Notes: a model not told the origin generated them from the sequence alone. Positions 6,176-47,168 are shown, numbered from the stretch's first letter. The stretch is DNA of 64,000 bases from Alphaproteobacteria bacterium (GCA_965279315.1 OZ257145.1:73759-137758), one strand, 5' to 3'. Numbers and translations are program-made.

Positions 6176-6206
6176 TTAAAAGTTTTAGGGTTCTTCCCGA
6201 AAAGAA

Positions 6207-6233
6207 CGGCTGCATTCGTGCAGCCGTTTTTTT
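6207..6233 (+). terminator. Rho-independent terminator of ctrA
   Basis: Stem CGGCTGCA, loop ttcg, stem TGCAGCCG, followed by TTTTTTT. It sits about 30 nt after the ctrA stop. Confidence 0.7.
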
Positions 6234-6237
6234 GTTT

Positions 6238-6332: not shown

Positions 6333-6333
6333 T

Positions 6334-8231: not shown

Positions 8232-8235
8232 GGCG

Positions 8236-11124: not shown

Positions 11125-11207
11125 GCGGACAGCCTCCTTGTACAGGTACAAGGATGGCGCAGAAGCATTAAGTTTCGATTATGCGGCGCATACCGCCGTA
11201 TGCGAAA

Positions 11208-11729: not shown

Positions 11730-11756
11730 CGTAACCTCGAAATTCGGGATGGGCAT

Positions 11757-32785: not shown

Positions 32786-32824
32786 ATAAATTAAAACCGC
32801 CGGGTTTTTGAGGCCCGGCGGTTT
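32786..32824 (-). terminator. Rho-independent terminator of giant paralog 1
   Basis: Minus strand: AAACCGCCGGG, loop, CCCGGCGGTTT, then TTAATTTAT. Confidence 0.65.
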
Positions 32825-32847
32825 TATCGAAGATAATATCGGCTTTG

Positions 32848-35800
32848 CTAGGTCTGGTAGCCGCGCTTGCCGGTGAGGCCTTTTTCCCATGGCAGGCGTT
32901 TGTATTTGGAGTTTTCCTGTTCCTTGAACTTGGCGGCCAGGAAGTCGTCCTGCTTGTCGGGGCTCATCTTGTTGTAGGCCACCTTGTCCTTGGCGTTCAG
33001 CCCGTCGATCGTGTTGCTCTTGTCGATCGCGGCCTGCTTGCGCTCGTCGGCCGTCATCACCTTGTCCTTGGCGTTCGACTTCATGTTGTCGGCGCGGCTT
33101 GCCAGCTGCGTGCGTTCGGCAGCCAGCGCATCCGCATCCTTGATCGGCACGTCGCCCTTCGGCTGCATCTGGCCGATGACGCGGGTTGCCGCGTACATGT
33201 TGCCGTCATGACCCTGGCCGAGCGAAGCGGAGACGCTGCGATCCGGCGAGCCGCCCATCCAGCGGATCAGGTTTTCCGGGAAGATGTCGAGCAGCTTGAA
33301 CGACGTGTTCGCCGCCGTGTACAGCGTGCCCAGGTAAATGACCGAATAACAGACCTTGGCAACCAGCGCCATGAAGTAGTTGTTCGACGAGATGACCGAG
33401 GACGCGCCTTGCGAGAAGGTCGTGTGGAAGAAGACCGCGAAGGTGTTGTAGATCAGCATGCCGGCGACAAAGCCCATCACCGTCAGCACGGGGCGCATCA
33501 GCACGTTCAGCCACATGATCCACGCCGTGCGCAGCTGCGGCTGCCCCGCCGTCAGGCCGTCACCGGTCGAGACCAGGTGCGCCAGCGCTGCGACCGGCAC
33601 CATCACCACCGCCTCGAACACCGACACCATCCAGGTCAGGACCGAGAAGGCGACGCGCAGGAACGGCAGCACGGGCAGGTAGAAGGAAATCATCAGGCCC
33701 GACACGATCATCGCGGTGCCGATGGTGGCGAATGCGTTGAGCAGCGACGAAACGGCCACACCGATGCCGAGCGAGAAGCCGAAGCCTTTCAGCGTCGAGA
33801 CAGCCTGGACCAGCGTCACGCCGCCCCACAGCAGGGCGCCCGTGCCCAGCACGCTATGGCCCGTATTGGCCAGCTGCGCGAGGGGGTAAGTGCCGGTCGC
33901 GGCCAGGTCGACCGCGCGGAAGATGAACGCGCCGCCATAGCTGGGCACGAAGAAGCGCGCGAGCGTCGCCGCGATGTTGTTGTCGCCGCCCGAGAGGTTC
34001 TTGAATGCCGACATCAGGTTTTTCAGGGATCCGCTGGAGCCCGTGTTGATGTCGCGGCCGCCGGTTGCCGCCGTGTTCAGGTTGCGGCCGGTGGTGCCGG
34101 GCGCCGTGGAGTTCGCCCACCATTTGTCGTAGCCGTCGAGCGCGCCGAGGACTTTTTCCTCGAGGCCCGAGATGCGGCACGAACGGCCGATGATTTTCGA
34201 CCCGATGCAGCGCAGCCAGCCCGAGCCGCCGGCGCCGATCCAGACGGAGCCCGGTTCAACGGTCGCGGTCGGCTGTTGCGCGCCTGCCATCAGGCTGTTC
34301 ATGTTGGTGATGTCCTGGTACCACATGCCCATGCCGGCCCAGCCGCGCGCATTCATCTGCGCTACCATCGGGCCGCCGATATAGGTCGTCAGCGCGGTTT
34401 TGCCGGGGCCTTCATAGGCGGTCATGATGTCGGTCTGCAGTTGGTTCGACATCGCCTGCTGTTCATCCATCGTGGGGTCGGTCGCGGCGGCGGCCGTCGT
34501 CGCCGCATCGCATTGCGGGATCGCGCCGACAGGGCTGGTGCCCGTGCCGCCGTCGGGGAATTTGCGCGCGACATAACGGCAGGCGAAGCGGCGGGCCATT
34601 TCAATGACCGTGCCGCCGGAACCCATCGCACTGGTCGCGCTGTCCTGCATCGCAGGCTCCAGCGCGCCGCGCATCGCGTTACGGAACGCGCGGGCGGCGA
34701 TCGTGAAGTTGGGGGCGGCGTTGTAATCCGTGCCGCTGACGATCGGGGTCGAGGTCGACATCGGGGTCGAGGGCACCATCGCCGACCATGCCAGGAACTT
34801 GTCCATGTCATCGGTCGTGGAGGCGGTCGAATAACTGATCGTGCCGCAGACGTTGGAGCCGGTGTTGTTGGTGTAGCGGTTCGTGATCGTGCCGAGGTTC
34901 GGCGTCACGTCCTGCACGCGGCGGATCACCTGGTCGGGCGGCAGGCCGCCTTGCGTCTGCTGCAGGTAGGTGTTGAACGCCACCTGGCAGACCATCACCT
35001 TGCCGATGCTGTTGACGAGCGAGGTCGCGTTATTGACGGCGAAGGGCGCCAGCAGGGACTGGTCGCCCACAACGCCCGCCACATATTGCGACCAGGCGCG
35101 CGTACCGAAGTTCGAGCCCCATTCGGCCAGTTTCATCACGGCATACTGGCCGGAGGAGAAGCCGGAGCCGAGGGGGAACAGCAGGCCGAGCGCGAACATC
35201 ACGCGGATCGGCGCCCAGACCATGTTATGGCGGCCGCCGCCGAACACGCCGGTTTTCGCGGTGTCGATGATGATGGAAACGATCATCCACAGCATCATGA
35301 CGCAGGCAATCGTGATGACGCCGGTGTTATACGCGCCCATCATGCCGGCAAGGGCGTTCTGCAGCGCGCCGCCGTTCGGCGTATCGGCTGCCGCCTGGCG
35401 CAGGATCTTGTCCAGCACCATCAGGCCGTAATCGGTCGAGATGTTGTTGTTCGCGACGCGACCGTCGAACAGGCCGCCCGCGCCCGTGATGGCGCCCACG
35501 TTGCCCATGTCGGTCTTGCCGGCGCCCGCGCCATAGGGGTTGCCCGGGTGGGTGAAGAACAGCTGCGCCTGCGCGACTTCGCCGACGCCCAGGAAGATGC
35601 GGGCGAAGAACGTGCCGAGCGTCGCGGTCAGCGTGACGATCATCATGACGACGACGGTGAACATGCCGTACTGGTACATGCCGGTGCGGCGCGTGGTGCG
35701 CAGGCGGAACCAGACATCGCCCATCATCTTGGTGAACTTGATATTGGGCACGCCTTCCGCGCCGTAGTTGACCGCGGGGTGGTCGTTCGGCAGCAGGGAT

Positions 35801-36144
35801 GCCTGCACCAGCACCTGCGCCATGATGCGCATGAACACAGGGTAAATATGGGAGAAGCCGCGGAAGCACAGGCTGAACTGCGGCAGGAACATGAACGCGG
35901 CAATGGCCGAGCCCTTGATGCGGAACGGCTTGCGTTTGCCTTCCGCGATCTCGCGCTTTTCAAGCGCGCGTTTTTCGGCATAGGGGCTGGCGGCTTTCTG
36001 GACGTCTGTCAGGCCGCGGCGGGCTGTCACGCGCTCGCCGGTTGCGAATCTCTCGACGGCGGCATCGGCCTTTTTGTCCTTGCGTAGCTCCGCGAGTGCG
36101 CGAAGACCGTCCGCAATTAAACCCTTATGCTTGGAATCGCTCAT
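32848..36144 (-). CDS. Giant polytopic membrane protein, paralog 1 of 4 (tentatively DotA/TraY-like or VirB6/TrbL-like; family unverified)
   Basis: 1098 aa from ATG 36144 (MSDSKHK). It shares these blocks with the other three: F(M/V)FLPQFxxCFxGFSH(I/L)YPxFMR, STDY(A/G)LMVLDKILRQ, GGGRHNMVW(A/T/V)PIRV(M/V/L)FALG, GQY(A/M)VMKLAEWGSN(F/L)G, (V/I)MVCQ, TNRYTNNT, RGWAGMGMWYQ, TNTYPLA, FYLP(V/A)LPF(L/I)RVAFxVLTW and LYTAANTSFKL. The CDS is certain; the function is not. Confidence 0.85.
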   Translation of the reverse strand: MSDSKHKGLIADGLRALAELRKDKKADAAVERFATGERVTARRGLTDVQKAASPYAEKRALEKREIAEGKRKPFRIKGSAIAAFMFLPQFSLCFRGFSHIYPVFMRIMAQVLVQASLLPNDHPAVNYGAEGVPNIKFTKMMGDVWFRLRTTRRTGMYQYGMFTVVVMMIVTLTATLGTFFARIFLGVGEVAQAQLFFTHPGNPYGAGAGKTDMGNVGAITGAGGLFDGRVANNNISTDYGLMVLDKILRQAAADTPNGGALQNALAGMMGAYNTGVITIACVMMLWMIVSIIIDTAKTGVFGGGRHNMVWAPIRVMFALGLLFPLGSGFSSGQYAVMKLAEWGSNFGTRAWSQYVAGVVGDQSLLAPFAVNNATSLVNSIGKVMVCQVAFNTYLQQTQGGLPPDQVIRRVQDVTPNLGTITNRYTNNTGSNVCGTISYSTASTTDDMDKFLAWSAMVPSTPMSTSTPIVSGTDYNAAPNFTIAARAFRNAMRGALEPAMQDSATSAMGSGGTVIEMARRFACRYVARKFPDGGTGTSPVGAIPQCDAATTAAAATDPTMDEQQAMSNQLQTDIMTAYEGPGKTALTTYIGGPMVAQMNARGWAGMGMWYQDITNMNSLMAGAQQPTATVEPGSVWIGAGGSGWLRCIGSKIIGRSCRISGLEEKVLGALDGYDKWWANSTAPGTTGRNLNTAATGGRDINTGSSGSLKNLMSAFKNLSGGDNNIAATLARFFVPSYGGAFIFRAVDLAATGTYPLAQLANTGHSVLGTGALLWGGVTLVQAVSTLKGFGFSLGIGVAVSSLLNAFATIGTAMIVSGLMISFYLPVLPFLRVAFSVLTWMVSVFEAVVMVPVAALAHLVSTGDGLTAGQPQLRTAWIMWLNVLMRPVLTVMGFVAGMLIYNTFAVFFHTTFSQGASSVISSNNYFMALVAKVCYSVIYLGTLYTAANTSFKLLDIFPENLIRWMGGSPDRSVSASLGQGHDGNMYAATRVIGQMQPKGDVPIKDADALAAERTQLASRADNMKSNAKDKVMTADERKQAAIDKSNTIDGLNAKDKVAYNKMSPDKQDDFLAAKFKEQENSKYKRLPWEKGLTGKRGYQT

Positions 36145-36194
36145 GGTTTTGCCCTGCAAATAAAGACCGGAACCTATAACAGGCTTATTCTTAA

Positions 36195-36223
36195 ATTGTA
36201 CGCCTTTTTCTTAAAACCGTCAA
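36195..36223 (-). promoter_or_regulatory. Sigma70-type promoter of paralog 1 (conserved cassette)
   Basis: Minus strand: TTGACG, GTTTTAAGAAAAAGGCG (17 nt), TACAAT. It sits inside a ~75-bp block repeated upstream of all four paralogs. Confidence 0.6.
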
Positions 36224-36322
36224 ATTTATGGACATTTATGCAAAATTTTACGGGACGGAATTGGCAAGTAATCTCATATAGTTAACAAAAACCTAACCTG
36301 CGGGGCCGCGATGCGCTTGCCC

Positions 36323-36356
36323 AAAAAAGACACCGCCGGACATGTGCCCGGCGGTG
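36323..36356 (-). terminator. Rho-independent terminator of giant paralog 2
   Basis: Minus strand: CACCGCCGG, 8-nt loop, CCGGCGGTG, then TCTTTTTTGG. Confidence 0.7.
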
Positions 36357-36385
36357 CGTTATCACTGTGGCCTGCGGGCGTCCGT

Positions 36386-39300
36386 TCAGATCTTGAACAG
36401 CTTGCCGGCCAGCGCTTCGTTTGCCTTGATCAGGTCGTTCAGCTTGCTTTCGCTTGCCGTGCCCTTGGCAACCAGCCCGCGCAGCACGCTTTCGGCGTAT
36501 TTCGCGTCCGAGAACTGCTCGCGCTTGGCGATATCGGCGTTTTTCCAGGCCGTGCGCTGTTCGGACGACATTTCGTTTTCAGCCGCACGGTCGCGCGATT
36601 CCACCAGCTTGCCATGCGCCAGCGCGACGGCCGCTTTTTCATCGCGGGTCATGAAGCCCCATTGCGTGTTGACGTCGGAGCCGGCGTTTTTCTCTTCCCA
36701 CATCGCTTGCGCGTAGCCGATCGTTTTCTTCGGCTCGCGGCTGGCTTCGTCCATCGCCGCGCCGTCAAGGCCCAGCTTGCTCAGCAGGTTCAGCTCGTCC
36801 TGCGCCTTCATATAGCCGAACATCGCCTCCGTGCCCGGTTTGCCCACGCCCGGCGCGAACAGTTCGGGATCTGTTTCGTAATAGCGGCGGATAAAGCTGT
36901 CCTTGTCCGCAGCCGACATACCGACATAGTTCACGGCATCGGCGCCCGACATCTGGTTTTCGATCTTCTGGCGCACGGCTGCGATCTGGGTTGCATTCAT
37001 CGCATCCATGCCGGAGCCGCCGCCGCCCGAAAGTGCGCCGTCAAGCGCGCTGTCCGAGATGCTTGCGCCGGCCAGCTGGCCGCGGCCCACCGACGGGCCA
37101 TCCAGTTCGCGGAAGTTCTGGTCGTTGTCCTTGTGTCCGCGCTGGCCGTGACCGGCCAGTTTTTCACCGAAATGGTAGCCGGAACCGCCCATATCCTTGC
37201 CGCCCTCGTTGCGGGAGAACCAGCGGCGCGGGTTCATGCTGGCATGCATATTCAGGCCGGCAAAGGTCGTGCCTGCGCCGCTGTAACCCGCCTTGCCAGT
37301 CGTGTTCAGGCTATAGCCGATGCCGCGCTCGAAGCCGAAGCGTTTGTATTTCTTGTTCTCCTGCTCCAGGAACTTGTGCTGCAGGAAGCGGTCCTTGTCG
37401 CCGGACGACATGTTGCCCATGCGGTCGCGTTCGTCCGCGGTCATGCGGGAACGGGCCAGCTGCATGTCCGACTGCTTGCGCGCAAGCTTGCTGTCGGTCA
37501 GCAGCTCGTCGCGGACGCCCATGGCCGCCGCACGCGACGCCACGCTGTTCGCGTTCTTGAGGTTGGTCAGGTCGTCGTCGGACTTGATCAGGTTGCGCAC
37601 GTTCCAGCCCGAAGACATCGGGATCGCCTGTTCCAGGTTCTTGATCAGTGTCGCACCGGCGAAGCCGAGGCCGCCGCCGATGTTGGAACGGCCGTCCAGC
37701 AGCGCGGTGTCCTGTTTCGCGCCCCATTCGCCGAGCCAGCGCATCAGGTGGTTGGGGAACACGTCCAGAAGCTTGAACGAGGTGTTCGCCGCCGCATACA
37801 GCGTGCCGAGATAAATGACCGAATACGCGACCTTGGCAAGGATCTGCATCGGGTACCAATGCGTCGACATCACCGATGCCGCGCCCTGTTCGAACGTCGT
37901 GTGGAAAAACACGGCGAAGGTCGAATAGCACAGCATGCCGGCAATGAAGCCGAACACGGTCAGGATCGGGCGCATGAAGACGTTGAACCACAGCGTCCAG
38001 GCCGTCCGCCCGTGGTTACCCATCAGGCCGGGCCCCATGGTGGAGAGGTGGGTCAGCGCCGCAACCGGCACCATCACGACCGCCTCGAACACCGAGGTCA
38101 GCCAGGTGAGAACGGAGAACGCGACGCGGATGAAGGGCAGCGCGGGCAGGTAGAAGGAAATCACGCAACCCGCCAGGATCATCATCGAGCCGACGGAGGC
38201 AAGCGCGCCCATCAGCGCGGAGAAGGCAAGGCCTTTACCGAGCGAGAAACCCGCGCCGTCAATCGTCGACACGGCCTGCAGGATCGAGACACCCGTCCAC
38301 AGCAGCGCGCCGATGCCCAGCACGCTATGGCCGGTATCCGACAATTGCGCCAGCGGATAGGTGTTGGTCGCGGACAGGTCGACCGCCTTGAACAGGAACA
38401 CGCCGGCAGCACGCGGGAAGATAAAGCGCGTCAGCACGGTCAGGATGCCGTTGTCGCCGATCGACACGTTGCCGATCCATGACAGGATCGAGCCGATGGA
38501 AGAGCCGACCGCAGGGTTCAGTTCCTGGTTGGAGGACGCGGCCGCCTGGCCGACCTTGCCGGGCGATCCCGAAAGGCCCGATACGCCCCACCAACGGTCA
38601 TATTCGTTCATGACCGAGAACACTTTGTCCTCGAGGCCGGAGATTTTGCACTGCTCGCCGGATTCGCTGGAGTCACCCGCGCAACGCTCCCAGCCCGCAC
38701 CGCCCGAGCCTGACCAAATCGAGCCGGGCTCGACCGTCGCCATGGGTTCCTGCGCCGTGTACTGCACGTTGTTCAGGTTCGCGATGTCCTGGTACCACAT
38801 GGCCATGCCGGCCCAGCCGCGGCTCGACATTTCGGTCATCATCGGGCTGGTCGCCGTGGTGCCGACGTAGTTGTTGAGCGCGCCGCGCCCGCCGCCCGTA
38901 TAGGCGGCCATCATCGCGGCCTGCATCGTGTTCAGCATGTTCTGGTGCGACGACGTGTCGGGGTCGGTCGCGGCGGCCGCTGCGCCTGCGCACATCGGGA
39001 TATCGGCCACGGGGTTGCCCGCACCGCCGCCGTCGCTGAAACGGCGGGAAACGAACTGGCACGCGAAAGTGCGCGCATCGTTCACGACAGAACCCGCGCC
39101 GACGCCGGTCGGGGTGTCGGCGAGGTCGGCGGAAAGCGCCCCGCGCATCGCGTCGCGGAAGCCCTTCACGGCGGTCGTCATGCCGACGTTTTTATAGTTG
39201 TTGTCGGGCGCGGTGCCGGTCGAGGTCGAGGCGGTCATCGCCGTGTTCGGCGTCGCCGTGCTCCAGTCGAGGAACTGGTTGTTGTCGTCCGGCGTCGCGG

Positions 39301-40549
39301 CCGTGGCGAACTTGATCGCGCCGCAGATGTTGTTGGCGGTGTTGTTGGTGTAGCGGTTGGTGATGTAAAGCTGGCTTTGCTGCGGCGTGCCGGGCGCGGC
39401 GCTCATGGCGTCCTGCTTCAGCTCGATCACCTGGTCGGGGTCAAGCGCGCCGGTGCGCTGCTGCAGGTAGGTGTTGTAGGCCGCCTGGCAGACCATGATC
39501 TTGTTGATCGATGTCACCACGTTGGTGTTGTTGTTGACGGTATAGGGCGACAGCAGCGTCTGGTTGCCGACGACGGAAGCGACATAGGTCGCCCAGCCGC
39601 GCGTGCCGAAGTTGGAGCCCCATTCCGCAAGCTTCACGACCATGTACTGGCCGCCCGAGAAGCCGGCGGAGCCCAGCGGGAACATGATGCCAAGCGCGAA
39701 CAGCACCCGGATCGGCACCCAGACCATGTTGTGGCGGCCGCCGCCGACGGTGCCGGTTTTCGCGGTGTCGATGATGACGGAAATGACCATCCAGCCGATC
39801 ATCAGGCAGGCGACGACGAGCATGCCGGAGTTATAGATCATCATCAGGCCGCCGAGCGCGTTTTGCAGCGCGCCGCCGGTCGGGTTGCTGGCCATGCCCT
39901 GGCGCAATACCTTGTCGAGCGCCATCAGCGCATAGTCGGTCGAGATGCCGTTGCCCTGCACGCGCAGGTCGAACAGGCCGGAGGATCCCGCGATCGTGCC
40001 GGCGGTCGCATCCAGTTCCGTCACGCCCTGCCCCTTCAGGTACGGGTCGCCGGGATGGCGGAAGGCCTCGAAAATCTGCGCCTGCGCAACGGCGCCCACG
40101 CCCAGGAAGATGCGCGCGAAGAACGCGCCCAGCGATGCGGTGAAGGCCATGATCATCATCATGACCGCGCCGAACATCGTCCATTGATAGGTGCTCGCGC
40201 GGTTGGTTTTCAGGCGGAACCACACCTCGCCCAGCAGCTTGCGGAAGCTGTAGGATTTTTTGGTGATGGCATCGGCCTCGAGCGCGGGGTGAGTCGCGGG
40301 AATCAGCGACACCTCGGCGAACATCGTCGCCATGGTGCGGATAAAGGCAGGGTAAAGGTGCGACATGCCTTCAAAACACATGCGGAATTGGGGCAGGAAG
40401 ACGAAGGCGGCGGTCGATTTCGCCTTGATGCGGGGAGCGCGCATGTTGTTCATCGCATCGCGGATGCGACGGGCCAGATAAGGGTTGACCTTGAGCTCTT
40501 CTTCGGCCGGAATGCCTTGATTAAGCTTAGGTTTGACCATGCGTTTCAT
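36386..40549 (-). CDS. Giant polytopic membrane protein, paralog 2 of 4, with a ~430-aa hydrophilic C-terminal extension
   Basis: 1387 aa from ATG 40549 (MKRMVKP); the start was chosen by analogy with the cGGGG..ccATG context of the other paralogs. Same conserved blocks. Long Lys/Asp/Glu/Met-rich tail. Confidence 0.85.
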   Translation of the reverse strand: MKRMVKPKLNQGIPAEEELKVNPYLARRIRDAMNNMRAPRIKAKSTAAFVFLPQFRMCFEGMSHLYPAFIRTMATMFAEVSLIPATHPALEADAITKKSYSFRKLLGEVWFRLKTNRASTYQWTMFGAVMMMIMAFTASLGAFFARIFLGVGAVAQAQIFEAFRHPGDPYLKGQGVTELDATAGTIAGSSGLFDLRVQGNGISTDYALMALDKVLRQGMASNPTGGALQNALGGLMMIYNSGMLVVACLMIGWMVISVIIDTAKTGTVGGGRHNMVWVPIRVLFALGIMFPLGSAGFSGGQYMVVKLAEWGSNFGTRGWATYVASVVGNQTLLSPYTVNNNTNVVTSINKIMVCQAAYNTYLQQRTGALDPDQVIELKQDAMSAAPGTPQQSQLYITNRYTNNTANNICGAIKFATAATPDDNNQFLDWSTATPNTAMTASTSTGTAPDNNYKNVGMTTAVKGFRDAMRGALSADLADTPTGVGAGSVVNDARTFACQFVSRRFSDGGGAGNPVADIPMCAGAAAAATDPDTSSHQNMLNTMQAAMMAAYTGGGRGALNNYVGTTATSPMMTEMSSRGWAGMAMWYQDIANLNNVQYTAQEPMATVEPGSIWSGSGGAGWERCAGDSSESGEQCKISGLEDKVFSVMNEYDRWWGVSGLSGSPGKVGQAAASSNQELNPAVGSSIGSILSWIGNVSIGDNGILTVLTRFIFPRAAGVFLFKAVDLSATNTYPLAQLSDTGHSVLGIGALLWTGVSILQAVSTIDGAGFSLGKGLAFSALMGALASVGSMMILAGCVISFYLPALPFIRVAFSVLTWLTSVFEAVVMVPVAALTHLSTMGPGLMGNHGRTAWTLWFNVFMRPILTVFGFIAGMLCYSTFAVFFHTTFEQGAASVMSTHWYPMQILAKVAYSVIYLGTLYAAANTSFKLLDVFPNHLMRWLGEWGAKQDTALLDGRSNIGGGLGFAGATLIKNLEQAIPMSSGWNVRNLIKSDDDLTNLKNANSVASRAAAMGVRDELLTDSKLARKQSDMQLARSRMTADERDRMGNMSSGDKDRFLQHKFLEQENKKYKRFGFERGIGYSLNTTGKAGYSGAGTTFAGLNMHASMNPRRWFSRNEGGKDMGGSGYHFGEKLAGHGQRGHKDNDQNFRELDGPSVGRGQLAGASISDSALDGALSGGGGSGMDAMNATQIAAVRQKIENQMSGADAVNYVGMSAADKDSFIRRYYETDPELFAPGVGKPGTEAMFGYMKAQDELNLLSKLGLDGAAMDEASREPKKTIGYAQAMWEEKNAGSDVNTQWGFMTRDEKAAVALAHGKLVESRDRAAENEMSSEQRTAWKNADIAKREQFSDAKYAESVLRGLVAKGTASESKLNDLIKANEALAGKLFKI

Positions 40550-40602
40550 GCGTGATGCCCCGAGAAAATAGTTCCACACACCTAAATCAGGCTTATTCCT
40601 TC

Positions 40603-40631
40603 ATTCTACGCCTTTTTCTTAAAACCGTCAA
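40603..40631 (-). promoter_or_regulatory. Sigma70-type promoter of paralog 2 (conserved cassette)
   Basis: Minus strand: TTGACG, GTTTTAAGAAAAAGGCG, TAGAAT. Confidence 0.6.
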
Positions 40632-40711
40632 ATTTACGGGCATTTATGCAAAATTTTACAGGTACATAAGTCCCTCAGGGGTTTTCCCCTGTTCCGGCGC
40701 CGCCCTGCCCC

Positions 40712-40746
40712 AAAAAGAAAACCGCCGGATCTTGCGACCCGGCGGT
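40712..40746 (-). terminator. Rho-independent terminator of giant paralog 3
   Basis: Minus strand: ACCGCCGG, loop, CCGGCGGT, then TTTCTTTTTGG. Confidence 0.7.
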
Positions 40747-40771
40747 GATTTCTTTGGCTGAAGCCAGGGCC

Positions 40772-43672
40772 TTAGGCCTTGTCGCCGCCGACTTTTTTGC
40801 CGCCGCCGCCGCCGCTCTTCATGTTGAAGTTGGGCTTCATCTGGCCGAGCAGCTGGGTACCGGCCAGCATCATGCCGTCGTTATGGTCGTCCATGCTATG
40901 GTCAGGCGAGCCGCCCATCCAGCGCATCAGGGCCGAGGGGAACATGTCCATCAGCTTGAACGAGGTGTTCGCAGCCGTGTACAGCGTGCCCAGATAGATG
41001 ACCGAATATGCCACTTGGCCGAGGATCATCATGATCGGGTTACCGTTCGAGGCCAATACCGCCGCCGAGCCCTGAGAGAAGGTCGTGTGGAAGTAAACCG
41101 CGAAGGTGTTGAAGATCAGCATCCCCGCCACGAAGCCGAACACGACCAGAATCGGGCGCATCAGCACGTTCAGCCAGAGAATCCATGCCGTGCGCGCACC
41201 GCCCGCCAGGCCGTCGCCTTCGGATGTCAGGTGGGCAAGCGCCGCGATCGGAACCATCACCACAGCCTCGAACACGGAGGTCATCCAGGTCAGGACCGCG
41301 AAAGCCACGCGCAGGAACGGCAGGACCGGAAGGTAGAAGGCAATCATCACGCCCGCCACCATCATGGTCATCGCAATCGTCGCAAGGCCGTTCGCAAGGG
41401 CCGACACCGCAAGACCGCCACCGCCGGAGAACGTCGCGATCTCCGCGCTCGACAGGATCTGCAGCACGGTCAGGAGGACCATGATGGTCGTCGCCGTGCC
41501 GATGATCGAGTAGCCGGTATCAGCCAGCGACGCGAGCGGATAGGTGTTGGTTGCAGCAAGGTCGACCGCCTTGAAGAGGAACATGTCGCCCGCACGCGGC
41601 CAGATTTTCGAGATGATCCAGTCAGCGATGCTCAAGTCGCCGGTTGCGAGGTTTTTCAGGAACGAGATCATCGACCAGAAACCGCCGCCACCCGAAGACG
41701 GGTTCAGGTCCGAGGTACGCTGCGCGGTGCCGTAGTCGGTACGGCCAGCCGAGCCGGGGCGGGACGCATCTGCCCACCAGCGGTCATAGTCGGCCATGAC
41801 GCCGACCACTTTTTCCTCGATATCGGGGTTTTTGCAGGCGCGGCCGAACAGTTTGCGGCCCGCGCATTTCATGGTGTTCCAGACGGACGACCAGAAGCCG
41901 CCTTTACCGGCGCCTTCCCACAGCGTGCCGGGTTCGACCGTCGCCGTCGGCTCGCGCGCCGATTGCAGCAGGCCGTTCAGCGACGCGATGTCCTGGTACC
42001 ACATGCCCATGCCGGCCCAGCCGCGGGCCTTCATTTCGTTCATCATGTCGCCGCCGCGGATATAGCCCATCAGGTCGGCTTTCGCGGAACCTGCAGCGCC
42101 GTCGGGGGCCACGCCGCCGTCATAGACCTGATTGATCGCCTGCATCAGCGCATCCAGTTCCTGCTGGGGCTGTGCTGCGTTCGGGTCGTTGGCGGGGGTC
42201 GCCATCGCGGCGCAGTTGTTGTAGCCGCCAGTCATCAGGCCGACCGGGTTGTTGGGCGTGCCGGGGTTGCCGTAGCGGCGCGCCACGAAATCGCAGGCGA
42301 AGGTACGCGCGGTCTGGATGATCGGGCCGCCCGAGCCGGTGGCGCCGTTCAGCGAGGTTTCATTCAGCTGGTTCTGCAGCGCGCCCATCATCTTGTTGCG
42401 GAAGCCCGCAACGGCGGTCGCCATCGTGGCTTTGTAGTTGGTGTAGGTCGCGCGGTTCGCGTTGGCGGCGGCGGTCGACGCGGCGTCCATCGGGGTGGTG
42501 GTGGTGGCGTTGGCCAGCATCAGGTCAACGTCTTCCGTGCCTGCGTTCGCGCTGGTCCCGTAAGTGATCGTGCCGCAGACGTTGGGGTCGGTGTCGTTGG
42601 TGTAGCGGTTGGTGACCCAGCCGGTGCGGTTGGTCAGATCCTGTTTAATGCGGATGACCTGGCGCGGGTCCATGCCGCCGGTCGATTGCTGCAGGTAGGT
42701 GTTGAACGCGACCTGGCAGACCATCACCTTGTTGATGCCGGCGACGAGCGAGGTTGCGTTGGCGGCGGAGAAAGGCGACAGCAGCGACTGGTCGCCGACG
42801 ACGCCGTTCACATAGGTGAGCCAGCCGGTGGAGCCGAAGTTGGAGCCCCATTCCGCCAGCTTCATCACGGCATACTGGCCGGAGGAGAAACCCTGGTTGC
42901 CGAGCGGGATCATGATGCCCAGCGCGAAGACGACGCGGATCGGGGTCCAGACCATGTTGTGGCGGCCGCCGCCGAAGAGGCCGGTTTTCGCCGAATCAAC
43001 GACGATCGACAGCACCATCCAGAACAGCATCGCGCCTGCGACCAGCAGGACGCCCGAGTTGTAGACCTGCATCAGGCCCGCCAGCGCGTTTTGCAGCGCG
43101 CCGCCGTTGCCGGGGACGCCGGTTGCCGCCTGACGGAGAATTTTGTCGAGGACCATGAGCGCGTAGTCGGTCGAGATGCCCGAACCGTTGACGCGGGAAT
43201 CGAACAGGCCTGCAGCGCCCGTGATGCCGGCGGTACCGCCGGAAATATCCGTCAGGCCGGTGCCGTAGGGGTCGCCGGGATGCGCAAAGATCTGCGCCTG
43301 CGCCACTTCGCCAAGGCCGAAGAAAATGCGCGCGAAGAACGTGCCGATGGCGGCCGCCAGCGTCACCATCATCATGATGATCCCGCCGAACATGCCGTAC
43401 TGGAAGGTGGTGGCGCGCGTCGTGCGCAATGTGAACCATGCCTCGCCGAAGAGGTCGCGAATCTGCGTGTTGGGCACACCCTGCGCGCCGTAGTTCAGCG
43501 CCGGATGGTCATCGGGCAAAAGTTTTGCCTGCACGAACATGAGGGCAAGGACCCGCATGAACACCGGATAAATGTGGGAGAAACCCTGGAAGCACATCCG
43601 GAACTGCGGCATGAACATAAAGGCCGCGACATTTGTTCCCTTGATGCGGTTCGATTCTCTGGCGTCGCTCAT
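40772..43672 (-). CDS. Giant polytopic membrane protein, paralog 3 of 4, with a Gly/Lys-rich tail
   Basis: 966 aa from ATG 43672 (MSDARES). Same conserved blocks. C-terminus SGGGGGKKVGGDKA. Confidence 0.85.
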   Translation of the reverse strand: MSDARESNRIKGTNVAAFMFMPQFRMCFQGFSHIYPVFMRVLALMFVQAKLLPDDHPALNYGAQGVPNTQIRDLFGEAWFTLRTTRATTFQYGMFGGIIMMMVTLAAAIGTFFARIFFGLGEVAQAQIFAHPGDPYGTGLTDISGGTAGITGAAGLFDSRVNGSGISTDYALMVLDKILRQAATGVPGNGGALQNALAGLMQVYNSGVLLVAGAMLFWMVLSIVVDSAKTGLFGGGRHNMVWTPIRVVFALGIMIPLGNQGFSSGQYAVMKLAEWGSNFGSTGWLTYVNGVVGDQSLLSPFSAANATSLVAGINKVMVCQVAFNTYLQQSTGGMDPRQVIRIKQDLTNRTGWVTNRYTNDTDPNVCGTITYGTSANAGTEDVDLMLANATTTTPMDAASTAAANANRATYTNYKATMATAVAGFRNKMMGALQNQLNETSLNGATGSGGPIIQTARTFACDFVARRYGNPGTPNNPVGLMTGGYNNCAAMATPANDPNAAQPQQELDALMQAINQVYDGGVAPDGAAGSAKADLMGYIRGGDMMNEMKARGWAGMGMWYQDIASLNGLLQSAREPTATVEPGTLWEGAGKGGFWSSVWNTMKCAGRKLFGRACKNPDIEEKVVGVMADYDRWWADASRPGSAGRTDYGTAQRTSDLNPSSGGGGFWSMISFLKNLATGDLSIADWIISKIWPRAGDMFLFKAVDLAATNTYPLASLADTGYSIIGTATTIMVLLTVLQILSSAEIATFSGGGGLAVSALANGLATIAMTMMVAGVMIAFYLPVLPFLRVAFAVLTWMTSVFEAVVMVPIAALAHLTSEGDGLAGGARTAWILWLNVLMRPILVVFGFVAGMLIFNTFAVYFHTTFSQGSAAVLASNGNPIMMILGQVAYSVIYLGTLYTAANTSFKLMDMFPSALMRWMGGSPDHSMDDHNDGMMLAGTQLLGQMKPNFNMKSGGGGGKKVGGDKA

Positions 43673-43726
43673 GGTTAAAACCCCGACAAAAACAGACACA
43701 CACACCTAAATCAGGCTTATTCTTTC

Positions 43727-43755
43727 ATGATACGCCTTTTTCCTAAAACCGTCAA
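43727..43755 (-). promoter_or_regulatory. Sigma70-type promoter of paralog 3 (conserved cassette)
   Basis: Minus strand: TTGACG, GTTTTAGGAAAAAGGCG, TATCAT. Confidence 0.6.
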
Positions 43756-43819
43756 ATTTACATGAATTTATGCAAAATTGTACGGGTGTAAAAAAGCCAA
43801 GCGGCACAAGGGGATCTGC

Positions 43820-43859
43820 GAAAAGAGAACCGCCGGACACCCTTTCGGCGCCGGCGGTT
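43820..43859 (-). terminator. Rho-independent terminator of giant paralog 4
   Basis: Minus strand: AACCGCCGG, loop, CCGGCGGTT, then CTCTTTTCG. Confidence 0.6.
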
Positions 43860-43910
43860 TGCAATTTATTTTCAGTCCATCCGGCTTTATGTCGCGCGCC
43901 GTAGCTGCGG

Positions 43911-46900
43911 TCAGGCTTTTCCGCCTGCGCCGCCCTTGCCCGACTGTCCGCCGGAGCCGGCACCCATGCCGAGTCCCCCGCCGCCTTTGCCGCCGGGAGC
44001 GCCCGGCGCGCCACCGCCGCCACCCACATCCGCAGCTTTCGTGCCGCCGGGGGTTGCATCGGGGTCGCCGGCTTTTTTGCCGCCGTACTGGAACTTGGGC
44101 GCCATGCCCTCCATCATCTTCGCAGCTGTCAGCATGTTGCCGTCGCTATGGTCGTCCATGCTGTGGTCAGGCGAGCCGCCCATCCAGCGCATCAACGCGT
44201 TCGGGATCACGTCCATCAGCTTGAAGGACGTGTTCGCCGCCGTATACAGCGTGCCCAGATAGATGATCGAATAGGTCACTTGCGCGATCATCGCGGTAAA
44301 GATGTTGTGGGTCGCAATCAGCGTCGACGCGCCCTGGCTGAAGGTGGTGTGGAAATAGGTCGCAAAGGCGTTGAAGATCAGCATGCCGCCCACGAAGCCG
44401 AACACGACCAGCACCGGGCGCATCAGCACGTTGAGCCACAGGATCCACGCGGTTCGCGCACCGCCGGCCAGGCCTTCGCCTTCGGTGCCAAGGTGCGTCA
44501 GCGCCGCGATCGGCACCATCAGCACCGCCTCGAACACCGACGTCATCCAGGTCAGCACCGCGAATGCGACGCGCAGGAACGGCAGCACGGGCAGGTAGAA
44601 GGCGATCATCACGCCCGCCACCAGCATTGTGGTGGAAATGGTCGACAGCACGTTCGCAACGGCGGACGCGGCGAAACCGATACCGCCCGACACCGTGAAC
44701 AGCTTGCCCGCCGTCAGGATCTGGATGATCGTGAGACCCGACAGGATGCTGAGCGAGGTGTAGATGATGCGGTGGCCGGCATCCGTCAGCGTCGCCAGCG
44801 GATAGGTGTTGGTGGCCGCCGTATCGACGGCGCTGAAGATAAAGCTGTCGCTGGCGCGCGGCCAGATGCGTTCGGCAACCCAGTTCAGGATGCCGGAGCC
44901 GCCGCCGAAGGCGACCGATTTGATGAACGAGATCACGGTGCGCAGGCCGCCGCCCGACGATGACGGCGTCACGTCCTGCGTGCGTTGCGCGCCGCCCATG
45001 GTGCCGAGCGGGGTGTTGGCGGGTGCGCCGGGGCGCGACGCGCTTGCCCACCAGGCGTCATACTCGCCAAGGATGGATGCGGCTTTTTCCTCGATCTCGG
45101 GGCTCTTGCAGGGGCGGCCGACGATGCGGCGGCCTGCGCATTTCAGGTTGCTCCAGAAGCCGCCTTTCGTTGCGCCTTCCCACAGCGTGCCGGGCTCGAC
45201 CGTTGCGGTCGGTTCGCGTGCGCCCGCCACTTGCGCGTTCAGCGCGGCGATTTTCTGGTACCACATGCCCATGCCGGCCCAGCCGCGACGCTGCATTTCC
45301 TTGATCATGCCGTTCGGGCCGGTGATGTAGGCCATCAGCGCGTCTTTCGCAAACGGGCCGCCGCCGCAGCCGGGGCTGGTGGGCGAAATGGGTGCGGAGC
45401 CGTCATATGTGCAGCGGATCGCGTCCATCATCATGCCGACCTGGCGCTGGGGGATAGAGGCGTCGGGGTCTGCCGCGGGCGCAACCGTGCCGCCGGGGCA
45501 GGCCGCATAGGGCGCGGACAGCAGGCCGACGGGGTTCGGCGTCGTGGTTTCCCAGCGGCGCGCAACGAAGGGGCAGGCCAGCTGGCGGGCGAGCGTGACA
45601 ACCGTGCCGCCGCCGGTGCCGGAACCGGTGTCAGCCGCGATGTCCATGTTTTCCGTCAGCAGGGGCTGCAATGCGCCCATCATGCGCTGGCGGAAATCCG
45701 CAAGGCGGTCGGCGAATTCCTGGTCGTAGTTGGTGTACATCGTACGGTTCGCGGCGTTCGCGGCAAGCGCGGCCGAGGCCGGGTCCATCGGCGACGAAAC
45801 GCCGGTGTTCGCCATCGCGGCGCCCACGTCCGAGTTCACGCCGTTGTCAAAGCCATAAGTGATCGTGCCGCAAATGTTGGCATCGGTGTTGTTCGTGTAG
45901 CGGTTCGCGACCCAGCCCACGCGGTTGGTCGTGTCCTGCTTCACGCGGATGACCTGCTGCGCATCGAGCCCGCCGGTGATGTTCTGCAGCGCCGAGTTGA
46001 ACGCGATCTGGCAGACCATGACCTTGTTCACGCCCGCCGCGATCGAGGTCGCGTTGTGGACGGAGAACGGCGCCAGCAGGCTCTGGTCGCCGACCACGCC
46101 CGCGATATACTGCACCCAGCCCTTGGTGCCAAGGTTGGAGCCCCATTCGGCCAGCTTCATGACCATGTACTGGCCGGAGGAGAAACCCTGCGCGCCGAGC
46201 GGGAAAATGATGCCGAGCGCGAAAACCATGCGGATCGGGGCCCAGACCATGTTGTGGCGGCCGCCGCCCAGCTTGCCGGTGCGCGCGGTGGAAACCACGA
46301 TCGACATGATCATCCAAAGGGTCACGACGCCCGCGATCAGCGTCATGCCGGTGTTATAAACGCGCATCAGGTCGACCAGCGCGTTTTGCAGCACGCCGCC
46401 GTTACCGACGGGCGCGGTCGCCGCCTGGCGCAGGATTTTGTCGAAAACCATCAGGGCGTAGTCGGTCGACACGCTCGCGTCGTTCACGCGGGTGTCGAAC
46501 AGGCCGCCGGGCGCTGTAATCGTGCTGGTACCGCCCGTGATCGCCGTTTCGCCGGGGCCGCCGGAGCAGCCGCCATAGGGGTTGCAAGGGTGTTCCAGCA
46601 CGCGCGGCAGGAACAGCTGCGCCTGCACGGCATTGCCGACCCCGAACACCACGCGCAGGAAGAACGAGCCGACCGCCAGCACCATCATCATGATCATCAG
46701 CACGACACCCGTGAACATCGACCACTGGTGCGCGCTGGAACGCGTGACGCGCAGCGTGAACCAAGCCGTGCCGAACAGGTCGAAAATATGGGTGTTGGGA
46801 ATCTCTTTCGCGCCGTAATTCAGCGCGTTATGCGACGAGGGGATCAGCTTCGCTTCGGCAAAAACCTGCGCAAGGCAACGCATGAAGACGGGGAAAAGAT

Positions 46901-46997
46901 GCGCAAACCCCGTAAAACACATGCGGAACTGCGGCATGAACAGAAACCTCGCGATGGAAGTTTTCTGACCAGAGTTGTAATCATCGGCATGGCTCAT
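43911..46997 (-). CDS. Giant polytopic membrane protein, paralog 4 of 4, with a long Gly-rich tail
   Basis: 1028 aa from ATG 46997 (MSHADDY). Same conserved blocks. C-terminus GGGGGAPGAPGGKGGGGLGMGAGSGGQSGKGGAGGKA. Confidence 0.85.
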   Translation of the reverse strand: MSHADDYNSGQKTSIARFLFMPQFRMCFTGFAHLFPVFMRCLAQVFAEAKLIPSSHNALNYGAKEIPNTHIFDLFGTAWFTLRVTRSSAHQWSMFTGVVLMIMMMVLAVGSFFLRVVFGVGNAVQAQLFLPRVLEHPCNPYGGCSGGPGETAITGGTSTITAPGGLFDTRVNDASVSTDYALMVFDKILRQAATAPVGNGGVLQNALVDLMRVYNTGMTLIAGVVTLWMIMSIVVSTARTGKLGGGRHNMVWAPIRMVFALGIIFPLGAQGFSSGQYMVMKLAEWGSNLGTKGWVQYIAGVVGDQSLLAPFSVHNATSIAAGVNKVMVCQIAFNSALQNITGGLDAQQVIRVKQDTTNRVGWVANRYTNNTDANICGTITYGFDNGVNSDVGAAMANTGVSSPMDPASAALAANAANRTMYTNYDQEFADRLADFRQRMMGALQPLLTENMDIAADTGSGTGGGTVVTLARQLACPFVARRWETTTPNPVGLLSAPYAACPGGTVAPAADPDASIPQRQVGMMMDAIRCTYDGSAPISPTSPGCGGGPFAKDALMAYITGPNGMIKEMQRRGWAGMGMWYQKIAALNAQVAGAREPTATVEPGTLWEGATKGGFWSNLKCAGRRIVGRPCKSPEIEEKAASILGEYDAWWASASRPGAPANTPLGTMGGAQRTQDVTPSSSGGGLRTVISFIKSVAFGGGSGILNWVAERIWPRASDSFIFSAVDTAATNTYPLATLTDAGHRIIYTSLSILSGLTIIQILTAGKLFTVSGGIGFAASAVANVLSTISTTMLVAGVMIAFYLPVLPFLRVAFAVLTWMTSVFEAVLMVPIAALTHLGTEGEGLAGGARTAWILWLNVLMRPVLVVFGFVGGMLIFNAFATYFHTTFSQGASTLIATHNIFTAMIAQVTYSIIYLGTLYTAANTSFKLMDVIPNALMRWMGGSPDHSMDDHSDGNMLTAAKMMEGMAPKFQYGGKKAGDPDATPGGTKAADVGGGGGAPGAPGGKGGGGLGMGAGSGGQSGKGGAGGKA

Positions 46998-47048
46998 GGC
47001 TTTGCCCCGGCAAATATAGGATGAACCGCCTTATTCAGGCTTATTCAT

Positions 47049-47077
47049 CCATGATACCCCTTTTTCTTAAAACCGTC
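47049..47077 (-). promoter_or_regulatory. Sigma70-type promoter of paralog 4 (conserved cassette)
   Basis: Minus strand: TTGACG, GTTTTAAGAAAAAGGGG, TATCAT. Confidence 0.6.
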
Positions 47078-47168
47078 AAAATTAAGGCATATTTATGCCA
47101 AATTTTAGGCAGCGGCGAAGAAGGGACTGATGGTGAATCATACCATTGATTGCATTAAGGAATATTTA

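What the first reader, a model, noticed from the sequence alone, without database searches (positions are those of the whole stretch)
32786..47110. Array of four tandem paralogous giant polytopic membrane proteins (966-1387 aa) with no recognisable partner genes
**What is seen**
- Four consecutive same-strand genes (32848-36144, 36386-40549, 40772-43672 and 43911-46997) encode clearly homologous proteins.
- They share long, nearly invariant blocks: FMFLPQFxxCFxGFSHIYPVFMR, STDYALMVLDKILRQ, GGGRHNMVWxPIRVxFALG, GQYxVMKLAEWGSNxG, VMVCQ, TNRYTNNT, RGWAGMGMWYQ, TNTYPLA, FYLPVLPFLRVAFxVLTWxxSVFEAVxMVPIAAL and LYTAANTSFKL.
- The architecture, read by eye, runs in this order: a cytoplasmic N-terminus, about 3 TM helices, a hydrophilic domain of about 400-450 aa containing Cys residues, 5 or more TM helices, and a variable hydrophilic tail.

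**What it recalls**
- From memory, the block '..TG.(F/V)GGGRHNMVW.PIR..FALG...PLG..GFS.GQY..' resembles the region of the DotA/TraY (type IVB) family that follows its first TM helix.
- Tandem amplification of enlarged polytopic paralogs with C-terminal extensions is known for the VirB6-like RvhB6a-e genes of the Rickettsiales.
- I could not verify either relationship.

**Why it is unusual**
- No other dot/icm, virB/trb, coupling-protein or relaxase gene is in the 64-kb window. The neighbours are yejABEF and a HAD hydrolase.
- This is therefore either a dispersed or orphan secretion component family, or an undescribed stand-alone envelope system.
- The many ankyrin-repeat proteins in the same window are typical T4SS cargo in intracellular bacteria. 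This makes a host- or prey-directed function an attractive hypothesis, but it remains untested.
Basis: partly seen in the sequence, partly recalled or inferred. Interest (0 to 1): 0.9.

Follow-up and report, generated by a model that had tools for sequence, protein, structure and literature searches.

The report
Four tandem DotA secretion-channel paralogs
Four neighbouring genes in a Micavibrio-like bacterium encode diverged copies of DotA, the central channel protein of Legionella-type (type IVB) secretion machines, but they sit among housekeeping genes with no other secretion gene nearby, so it is still open whether they serve a machine encoded elsewhere or work alone.

Summary
**Observation.** Four intact minus-strand genes (1098, 1387, 966 and 1028 aa) are 51-61% identical.

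**Family.** All four pass NCBIfam TIGR04346 (DotA/TraY) at 201-228 bits against a cut-off of 100. Their only match among solved structures, by sequence or by fold, is Legionella DotA (9ngy). They miss the Legionella DotA equivalog model (128-156 bits against 500) and carry a family-specific N-terminal module of about 180 aa.

**Organisation.**
- Each copy is its own transcription unit, with a terminator and a promoter region of about 56 nt.
- That promoter region is 84-95% identical between copies, while the coding DNA is 60-71% identical.
- It recurs upstream of orthologs in about 40 MAGs labelled Micavibrio or Alphaproteobacteria.

**Context.** The gene keeps one chromosomal slot (DHODH-EAL-HAD-DotA-yejABEF). 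It has been tandemly duplicated several times independently. No other T4SS gene lies in the window or within 10 kb in any related locus checked.

**Interpretation.**
- Most likely (0.55): the copies are channel subunits of a dispersed Dot/Icm-like system, paralleling Rickettsia's tandem RvhB6 genes.
- Rival (0.3): they form a channel that needs no T4SS.
- The whole-genome test that would decide between these could not be run.

The parts
43911..46997 (-). D4, a DotA/TraY-family paralog of 1028 aa with a Gly-rich C-terminal tail.
   Evidence: ORF. TIGR04346 scores 211 bits against a cut-off of 100. Aligned with the other copies. Its clade with D3 is shown in the tree.
40772..43672 (-). D3, a DotA/TraY-family paralog of 966 aa and the shortest copy. 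It was the one used for the structure model.
   Evidence: The start was fixed by the leader alignment and by the 966-aa homolog P0001 at 98% identity. AF2 model: pLDDT 76.6. Foldseek hit to DotA 9ngy.
36386..40549 (-). D2, a DotA/TraY-family paralog of 1387 aa with a hydrophilic C-terminal extension of about 430 aa.
   Evidence: TIGR04346 scores 227.5 bits. The tail has no Pfam or NCBIfam match.
32848..36144 (-). D1, a DotA/TraY-family paralog of 1098 aa with an N-terminal extension of about 70 aa and a charged C-terminal tail of about 130 aa.
   Evidence: TIGR04346 scores 228.4 bits.
47051..47107 (-). Conserved promoter region of D4: TAAAATTTGGCATAAAT, a short spacer, then TTGACG, 17 nt and TATCAT.
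   Evidence: The same element lies upstream of orthologs in about 40 MAG loci.
43727..43782 (-). Conserved promoter region of D3.
40603..40658 (-). Conserved promoter region of D2.
36195..36250 (-). Conserved promoter region of D1.
43820..43855 (-). Terminator-like hairpin after D4: CCGGCGCC..GGTGTCCGGCGG followed by a T-rich run.
   Evidence: It fell below the simple scanner's T-run rule.
40721..40746 (-). Intrinsic terminator after D3: an 11-bp stem followed by TTTTCTTTTT.
36330..36357 (-). Intrinsic terminator after D2: a 12-bp stem followed by CTTTTTT.
32796..32822 (-). Terminator-like hairpin after D1: ACCGCCGGG..CCCGGCGGT followed by TTTTAATTT. It separates the array from yejA, which has its own promoter-like site at 32743-32715.

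Best explanation
**What the genes are.** The four genes are diverged paralogs of DotA. DotA is the polytopic inner-membrane protein that forms the pentameric central chamber, or protochannel, of type IVB (Dot/Icm, IncI-type) secretion machines. It holds the position that VirB6 holds in type IVA systems.

**Where they come from.** The organism is an uncultured Micavibrio-like alphaproteobacterium. In this lineage the DotA gene sits alone at a fixed chromosomal position between a HAD hydrolase gene and yejABEF. It has its own strongly conserved promoter and its own terminator.

**How the array arose.** Tandem duplication produced three lineages of copies (D1, D2 and D3/D4). D3/D4 later split into D3 and D4.

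**Proposed mechanism (inferred, not shown).**
- Each protein inserts into the inner membrane through an uncleaved signal-anchor helix that replaces Legionella DotA's signal peptide.
- It places a Cys-stabilised domain of about 420 aa in the periplasm.
- It oligomerises through the well-conserved TM1-TM2 and HH1-HH5 helices into a channel.
- That channel works with Dot/Icm-like parts encoded elsewhere in the genome to pass proteins into a contacted prey or host cell.
- The paralogs would give alternative or mixed channels. They differ mainly in the periplasmic surface and the cytoplasmic tails, much like the tandem RvhB6a-e genes of Rickettsia.
For: **Shown here**
- All four proteins exceed the curated DotA/TraY cut-off.
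- The family profile aligns collinearly with Legionella DotA over TM1/TM2, the extended domain, HH1-5 and the C-terminal RW.GGSP motif. No other PDB protein matches.
- The AF2 model's only significant structural neighbour is DotA 9ngy, over 932 aligned columns.
- Among the paralogs, identity is highest in the channel-forming helices (65-70%). It is lowest in parts of the periplasmic domain (39-41%) and in the tails (33%).
- All copies are intact. Each has its own promoter and terminator.
- The paralog clades are old and have been retained.
- Four ankyrin-repeat genes lie in the same window.

**From the literature**
- DotA-IcmX forms the central protochannel of the Dot/Icm machine (PMC12501162).
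- Dot/Icm-type systems (pT4SSi) were detected in seven marine Micavibrionales genomes (PMC9418006).
- T4BSS genes lie in one or several operons (PMC11338181).
Against: **No linkage to T4SS genes.** No other T4SS gene was found in the 64-kb window. None lies within about 10 kb in the related loci checked. In most of them gene order shows only housekeeping neighbours. Pfam confirms this for the non-syntenic and more distant ones.

**Canonical DotA genes are linked.** The Methylorubrum megaplasmid DotA homolog lies next to a DotM homolog. Plasmid TraY genes lie on plasmids typed as conjugative or MPF_I.

**Other points**
- The Legionella-type DotA equivalog model is missed by a wide margin: 128-156 bits against 500.
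- The conserved promoter was found upstream of nothing else.
- The only cultured relative, M. aeruginosavorus, was reported to have no T4SS (PMC3189940).
- I could not examine any whole genome of this lineage.
Confidence: 0.55

Rival explanations
1. **T4SS-independent channel.** In Micavibrionales the DotA scaffold has been freed from the rest of the type IVB machine. It now works as a stand-alone oligomeric inner-membrane and periplasmic channel, for example in prey contact, envelope remodelling or uptake. The tandem paralogs would diversify that function.
For: - The gene is solitary in every related locus examined, from about 98% down to about 25% identity.
- It behaves as a vertically inherited core gene with fixed synteny, not as part of an island.
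- It has a dedicated promoter that is far better conserved than the coding sequence and was seen nowhere else.
- It has a family-specific N-terminal module of about 180 aa. That module is absent from the part aligned to Legionella or Methylorubrum DotA.
- The family is large: 2159 representatives at E <= 1e-30.
- M. aeruginosavorus was reported to lack a T4SS (PMC3189940).
Against: - In Legionella, DotA is assembled inside the DotG cage and capped by IcmX, and it has no known activity alone (PMC12501162).
- An inner-membrane chamber alone gives no route across the outer membrane.
- Dot/Icm-type systems have been reported in some Micavibrionales (PMC9418006).
- Adjacency to yejABEF carries little weight. 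The whole region from the cox genes to POR is syntenic, and a terminator plus a separate promoter lie between D1 and yejA.
- It is not known whether M. aeruginosavorus has this gene at all.
Confidence: 0.3
2. **Non-functional remnant.** The array is what is left of an integrated conjugative (IncI-type) element whose other tra genes were lost. On this reading the copies are non-functional or decaying.
For: - TraY/DotA homologs are common on conjugative plasmids.
- No tra partner gene lies nearby.
- One copy in the related MAG locus L007 is split into two ORFs.
Against: - All four ORFs are intact and 966-1387 aa long, with about 400 invariant columns.
- Codon-position GC is typical of expressed genes and matches the neighbours.
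- GC content matches the flanking DNA.
- No tRNA gene was found. No integrase or relaxase turned up in the HMM scans of the window.
- The position is conserved across dozens of species.
- The promoter is under strong constraint.
- The paralog clades are ancient and have been retained.
Confidence: 0.03

Closest known systems
[quoted passage not shown]
   Same: - Homologous along the whole core: TM1-TM2 with the conserved loop (GGGRHNMVW.PIR against GQKWSSIWIPLR), a large periplasmic Cys-containing extended domain, five long hydrophobic helices and the C-terminal RW.GGSP motif.
- It is the only significant structural neighbour.
- Similar size, about 1000 aa.
   Different: - Only about 15-25% identical.
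- The window proteins miss the DotA equivalog cut-off, at 128-156 bits against 500.
- Legionella DotA's signal peptide is replaced here by a conserved cytoplasmic segment of about 180 aa plus a signal-anchor helix.
- There are six conserved periplasmic Cys here, against five disulfides in Legionella DotA.
- Here there are four copies with no T4SS neighbour, whereas the canonical homologs checked lie with T4SS genes.
TraY of IncI-type conjugative plasmids, and alphaproteobacterial MPF_I DotA/TraY such as the one on the Methylorubrum extorquens AM1 megaplasmid
   Same: - Same NCBIfam family, TIGR04346.
- 21-30% identity, mainly over the C-terminal hydrophobic helices.
- 24% identity over residues 181-930 against the Methylorubrum protein.
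   Different: - The plasmid genes lie on plasmids typed as conjugative or MPF_I. The Methylorubrum gene lies next to a DotM/IcmP homolog.
- The genes here are chromosomal and solitary, lie in a fixed syntenic slot and are tandemly amplified.
RvhB6a-e, the tandem VirB6-like paralogs of the Rickettsiales vir homolog (type IVA) system
   Same: - Tandem amplification of the polytopic inner-membrane channel component.
- Enlarged proteins with variable hydrophilic extensions.
- A genome in which secretion genes are scattered.
- A lineage that depends on a host or prey. These points about Rickettsia come from my own knowledge of that literature, not from a check made here.
   Different: - A different protein family. 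VirB6/TrbL (PF04610) does not match, and the fold resemblance to TrwI is not significant.
- The resemblance is one of organisation and presumed role, not of descent.
- In Rickettsia the rest of the T4SS is known to be present. Here it is not.

Membership tests
DotA/TraY family (NCBIfam TIGR04346) | The whole-protein HMM score is above the curated cut-off of 100 bits. | tested here: met
   Scores of 228.4, 227.5, 201.0 and 211.2 bits for D1-D4. D1-D3 cover the model nearly end to end. D4 matches in two stretches, the better one covering model positions 310-656.
DotA/TraY family (NCBIfam TIGR04346) | Architecture: two N-terminal TM helices, a large periplasmic extended domain, a block of about five long hydrophobic helices, and a C-terminal amphipathic helix with the RW.GGSP motif. 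| tested here: met
   Hydropathy, AF2 secondary structure, and four collinear profile matches to DotA 9ngy.
DotA/TraY family (NCBIfam TIGR04346) | Fold similarity to the solved DotA structure. | tested here: met
   Foldseek against 9ngy_FP1: E = 1.6e-11, probability 1.00, 932 aligned columns. TM-score is only 0.35-0.39 (monomer model, with differing domain orientation and insertions). The next hit has E = 0.33.
Type IVB secretion system protein DotA, Legionella-type equivalog (NCBIfam NF033886) | HMM score above the equivalog cut-off of 500 bits. | tested here: not met
   128-156 bits.
Component of a Dot/Icm or IncI-type T4BSS gene set | Genomic linkage to other dot/icm or tra genes such as icmV/W/X, dotB/C/D or dotM. 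| tested here: not met
   None in the 64-kb window. None within about 10 kb in the related loci, judged by gene order and, for a sample, by Pfam. For contrast, the Methylorubrum homolog lies beside a DotM homolog.
Component of a Dot/Icm or IncI-type T4BSS gene set | The remaining machine (IcmB/DotO, DotB, DotL, DotC/D/H/G, IcmX) is present elsewhere in the same genome. | not testable with these tools
   Only the window and flanks of up to 10 kb of related contigs can be read. The literature gives pT4SSi in seven marine Micavibrionales (PMC9418006) and none reported in M. aeruginosavorus (PMC3189940).
TrbL/VirB6 (Pfam PF04610) | A match to the Pfam model, or significant fold similarity to VirB6/TrwI. 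| tested here: not met
   No Pfam hit at E <= 1. Foldseek against TrwI 7o3v gives E = 0.46-0.7 and probability <= 0.47.

The most novel reading that the evidence does not exclude
In Micavibrionales the DotA scaffold may have become a self-sufficient envelope channel family that needs no type IVB machine. It would be a lineage-wide core gene, driven by one dedicated and nearly invariant promoter, and repeatedly amplified in tandem. It could then be the unidentified conduit through which these epibiotic predators or host-associated cells exchange material with the cell they attach to.
Probability: 0.25. Interest if true: 0.85.

Novelty: new variant of a known kind. Interest (0 to 1): 0.55.

Why it matters
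**An unusual setting for DotA.** DotA has just been shown to be the gatekeeping central channel of the Dot/Icm machine (PMC12501162). Nearly all that is known about it comes from Legionella-type and plasmid systems. Here a whole uncultured alphaproteobacterial lineage keeps DotA homologs in a different arrangement:
- alone in a housekeeping region
- under a dedicated promoter conserved across genera
- repeatedly amplified in tandem

**If a Dot/Icm-like machine exists elsewhere in these genomes.** This would be a second, independent case, after Rickettsia's RvhB6 genes, of multiplying the inner-membrane channel subunit. It would be a natural experiment on which DotA surfaces can vary.

**If no such machine exists.** DotA could then act without the other roughly 26 Dot/Icm proteins. 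That would bear on how Micavibrio-type predators breach and drain their prey, which is still unknown.

**A practical handle.** The invariant promoter also offers a way to find the regulator.

Tried and rejected
**Searches that found nothing**
- Pfam found nothing credible in the four proteins.
- Rfam and tRNA scans of the window were empty.
- No paper in the library contains both 'Micavibrio' and 'DotA'.
- The other literature searches gave only two relevant statements: Needham 2022 on pT4SSi in Micavibrionales, and Wang 2011 on the absence of a T4SS in M. aeruginosavorus.
- Needham's Supplementary Data 11, which lists the Micavibrionales genomes, is not held. Pasternak 2014 is not held.

**Looking for co-regulated partner genes**
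- I scanned JGI metagenome contigs for the conserved promoter core. The scan returned 21 loci.
- Ten are DotA-like loci. Eleven are chance matches in unrelated AT-rich or coding DNA, without the upstream box.
- No regulon partner emerged.

**Looking for a conserved unknown neighbour**
- Clustering of ORFs across 42 loci showed only housekeeping synteny.
- The non-syntenic loci L017, L020, L032, L036 and L041 also have only housekeeping neighbours.

**Checks on the leader and the promoter**
- The 5' leader of about 50 nt shows no convincing conserved RNA structure by eye. I did not pursue it.
- A sigma-54-like reading of the D4 promoter (TGGCAT-N5-TGC) does not hold in the other copies.
- A CtrA box (TTAA-N7-TTAA) does not fit either.

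**What the tools could not do**
- I could not place M. aeruginosavorus. It was absent from the pattern-based genome scan and from named hits. More distant family members lack the scanned motifs, so absence is not shown.
- Organism names for the more distant members were not available.
- A whole-genome search for other dot/icm genes was not possible. Bridging through plasmid Tra proteins was judged too insensitive for the word-indexed protein search.


Full report
**1.

The region contains four long minus-strand ORFs. Their codon-position GC profile (GC3 0.85-0.88) is that of real genes and matches the neighbouring genes.

Aligning the four upstream regions shows a shared leader that ends in a conserved ATG. 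The products are 1098, 1387, 966 and 1028 aa. The closest database homolog of D3 is also 966 aa and 98% identical.

The proteins are 51-61% identical, with about 400 invariant columns.

**2. Family identity**

- Pfam has no model that matches.
- NCBIfam TIGR04346 (DotA/TraY) is passed by all four at 201-228 bits against a cut-off of 100. D1-D3 cover the model nearly end to end.
- The Legionella-type equivalog NF033886 is hit at only 128-156 bits against 500.
- D3 alone hits only Legionella DotA in the PDB (9ngy, E = 6e-15).
- A 65-sequence family profile hits the same chain at E = 3.9e-30 and nothing else.
- That profile match has four collinear stretches: TM1-TM2, part of the extended domain (including the N.CGT..Y and RGWAGMG.WY blocks), HH1-HH5, and the C-terminal helix with RW.GGSP.
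- An AF2 model of D3 (pLDDT 76.6, pTM 0.70) has DotA 9ngy as its single significant neighbour: E = 1.6e-11, probability 1.0, 932 columns, TM-score 0.35-0.39.
- VirB6/TrwI appears only at noise level.

These are DotA/TraY-family proteins, but not close orthologs of Legionella DotA.

**3. Anatomy** (D3 in the 977-aa numbering of the longest ORF)

| Residues | Feature |
|---|---|
| about 12-95 | Cytoplasmic, with the FMPQF..CF.GF.H..P.F.R motif |
| about 100-127 | Helix, presumably an uncleaved signal anchor |
| about 128-200 | Loop |
| 203-241 and 253-304 | Correspond to DotA TM1 and TM2, flanking the invariant GGGRHNMVW.PIR loop |
| about 305-720 | Hydrophilic extended domain |
| 723-929 | Long hydrophobic helices, corresponding to HH1-5 |
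| after 929 | Variable tail |

- The extended domain has six Cys conserved among the four copies. C330, C377 and C471 are invariant across 65 homologs, and C498 is nearly so.
- The first 180 residues or so have no counterpart in the regions aligned to Legionella DotA or to the Methylorubrum DotA homolog. They replace the signal peptide described for Legionella DotA (PMC12501162).
- Among the four paralogs, identity is 70% in TM1-TM2 and 65% in HH1-5. It is 39-54% in sub-regions of the extended domain and 33% in the tails.
- D2 has a tail of about 430 aa. D1 has a tail of about 130 aa that shares a ..F...KF.EQEN.KYKR block with D2.

**4. Each copy is a separate transcription unit**

- Every gene is preceded by the same element: TAAAATTTTGCATAAAT, about 7 nt, TAAATTTGACGGTTTTAAGAAAAAGGCGTA, and then a -10 hexamer of the form TA..AT. 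This reads as a sigma-70-like TTGACG, 17 nt and -10 hexamer, matching 10 of 12 positions.
- A leader of about 50 nt follows (GAATAAGCCTGA..AGG...GGGG).
- Both halves of the element occur exactly four times in the window, against about 0 expected by chance.
- Each gene is followed by a GC-rich hairpin of the type ACCGCCGGG..CCCGGCGGT plus a T-rich run. This includes the hairpin between D1 and yejA, and yejA has its own promoter-like site.
- The 56-nt promoter is 84-95% identical between copies. The coding DNA is 60-71% identical, and third codon positions 54-61%.

**5. Relatives and context**

- The word-indexed search found 132 homolog clusters. All come from metagenomes or MAGs. Named ones are 'Micavibrio sp.' or 'Alphaproteobacteria bacterium', and several lie on the same contig.
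- A scan of GTDB species representatives gave 42 loci. All are MAGs, labelled Alphaproteobacteria, Micavibrio, Rhodospirillaceae or 'Bdellovibrionales'. NCBI files Micavibrio under Bdellovibrionales.
- Close relatives carry 3-4 tandem copies. Most others carry one, and a few carry two.
- ORF clustering shows one conserved gene order across the clade: cox genes, SURF1, M32 peptidase, ThrC, DHODH, EAL, HAD, the DotA-like gene or genes, yejABEF, POR. It was found in 22-27 loci, including single-copy genomes whose protein is only 35-45% identical.
- The promoter element stands upstream of the DotA-like gene in about 40 of these loci. It occurs nowhere else in about 760 kb of held sequence.
- An NJ tree places an ortholog from the three-copy genomes L004 and L005 in each of the D1, D2 and D3/D4 clades. 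The triplication therefore predates those lineages, and D3/D4 split later. L029/L030 and L032 duplicated independently.
- An exhaustive profile search of 1.84 billion representatives found 5451 relatives at E <= 1e-3 and 2159 at E <= 1e-30.
- Contexts of five more distant members are again housekeeping only. Two of them show three adjacent genes of similar size (about 910-1010 aa, no Pfam match), which look like further tandem copies.
- The non-syntenic loci among the 42 are also housekeeping.
- In contrast, the best plasmid relative, on the Methylorubrum extorquens AM1 megaplasmid (typed MPF_I), lies next to a DotM/IcmP homolog.

**6. What it most likely is**

*Shown:*
- These are DotA-family channel proteins.
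- They are intact and under constraint.
- They are transcribed separately.
- They are vertically inherited in a Micavibrio-like order.
- They have been amplified repeatedly.

*Inferred:* they form oligomeric inner-membrane and periplasmic channels like the DotA pentamer (PMC12501162).

Whether they act inside a type IVB machine is the open point.

- In favour:
  - The DotA core is conserved in full.
  - Dot/Icm-type systems were reported in seven marine Micavibrionales (PMC9418006).
  - T4BSS genes can lie in several operons (PMC11338181).
  - The window contains ankyrin-repeat genes.
- Against:
  - No linkage to a T4SS gene was seen in any lineage.
  - The promoter is private to this gene.
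  - The N-terminal module is family-specific.
  - M. aeruginosavorus was reported to lack a T4SS (PMC3189940).

I put 0.55 on 'channel subunits of a dispersed Dot/Icm-like system' and 0.3 on 'T4SS-independent channel'. Decay or mobile-element remnants are negligible. The adjacency to yejABEF is best read as inherited synteny, because the whole region is syntenic and a terminator and a promoter separate the two units.

**7. Comparison and novelty**

Automated annotation already names these MAG proteins 'DotA/TraY family protein', so family membership is not new.

Several features appear undescribed; no paper in the held library mentions Micavibrio together with DotA:
- the solitary, syntenic placement
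- the recurrent tandem amplification
- the N-terminal module
- the near-invariant promoter

The nearest organisational parallel is the tandem RvhB6 array of Rickettsia. That is an analogy in a different protein family. I class the finding as a new variant of a known kind. It is of moderate interest now, and of high interest if the stand-alone reading proves true.

**8. Limits**

- No whole genome of the lineage could be searched.
- The structure is a monomer model with a modest TM-score to DotA.
- Promoter and terminator calls are consensus matches supported by conservation, not by transcript data.
- The taxonomic placement rests on the labels of related MAGs.

Noticed in passing
window 47051-47107, 43727-43782, 40603-40658, 36195-36250 (minus strand); also about 100 nt upstream of the DotA-like gene in L001-L040: The promoter region (TAAAATTTTGCATAAAT, about 7 nt, TAAATTTGACGGTTTTAAGAAAAAGGCGTA, then the -10) is almost invariant across about 40 MAGs whose DotA-like proteins are only 35-45% identical and whose GC content differs. 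The TAAAT/TAAAAT tracts are spaced 10-11 bp apart, and even the -35/-10 spacer is conserved. This suggests a dedicated regulator or an UP-like element. It occurs upstream of no other gene in the sequence held.
   Followed up: partly
window 11208-11756 (-), 19205-20317 (+), 20317-21273 (+), 21414-22379 (+): Four ankyrin-repeat protein genes lie within 64 kb. Three of them are adjacent. Ankyrin genes also lie near the yejABEF side in L035, L036 and L038. Eukaryote-like repeats are unexpected for a lineage known as predators of bacteria. They could point to a eukaryotic host or to secreted effectors.
   Followed up: partly
window 36386-37700 (C-terminal tail of D2) and 32848-33240 (tail of D1): D2 carries a hydrophilic tail of about 430 aa with no database family. 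It contains several loosely repeated M(S/T)..(D/E)K..F segments. D1's shorter tail shares a ..F...KF.EQEN.KYKR block with it. D4 ends in a Gly-rich tail. The tails are presumably cytoplasmic and are the most divergent part of the paralogs.
   Followed up: no
L070 10001-18343 and L071 6932-15823: In two much more distant family members (about 25% identity to a second-tier query), the gene looked up lies in a run of three adjacent genes of similar size (907-1007 aa, no Pfam match). Their surroundings are unrelated housekeeping genes. They look like further tandem copies, so tandem amplification may recur across the wider family. I did not confirm by alignment that the neighbouring genes are homologous.
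   Followed up: partly
L007 10226-12980: In a related MAG, the D1-type copy is split into two ORFs of 500 and 612 aa. This is either a frameshift or pseudogene, or an assembly error.
   Followed up: no
L040 (DASPMW010000067.1, 2150 bp) and L001/L010/L013 record titles: A 2-kb contig binned as 'Patescibacteria group bacterium' carries the HAD gene, the conserved promoter and the start of a DotA-like gene, so it is probably a mis-binned Micavibrio-like fragment. Several clearly alphaproteobacterial MAGs are titled 'Bdellovibrionales bacterium' because NCBI taxonomy places Micavibrio in Bdellovibrionota.
   Followed up: partly
window 8-11151: The window also holds a flagellar export and placement cluster (FlhF-like, a MinD/ParA-type ATPase, FliI, FliJ) and a chemotaxis cluster (CheR, CheB, CheY, CheW, CheA). 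A 648-aa ORF between them (1491-3437) has no family match.
   Followed up: no
L066 12867-16592 (and L067): In one distant lineage the solitary DotA-like gene is followed on the same strand by three genes with no Pfam match (83, 836 and 259 aa). These are candidates for lineage-specific partners.
   Followed up: no
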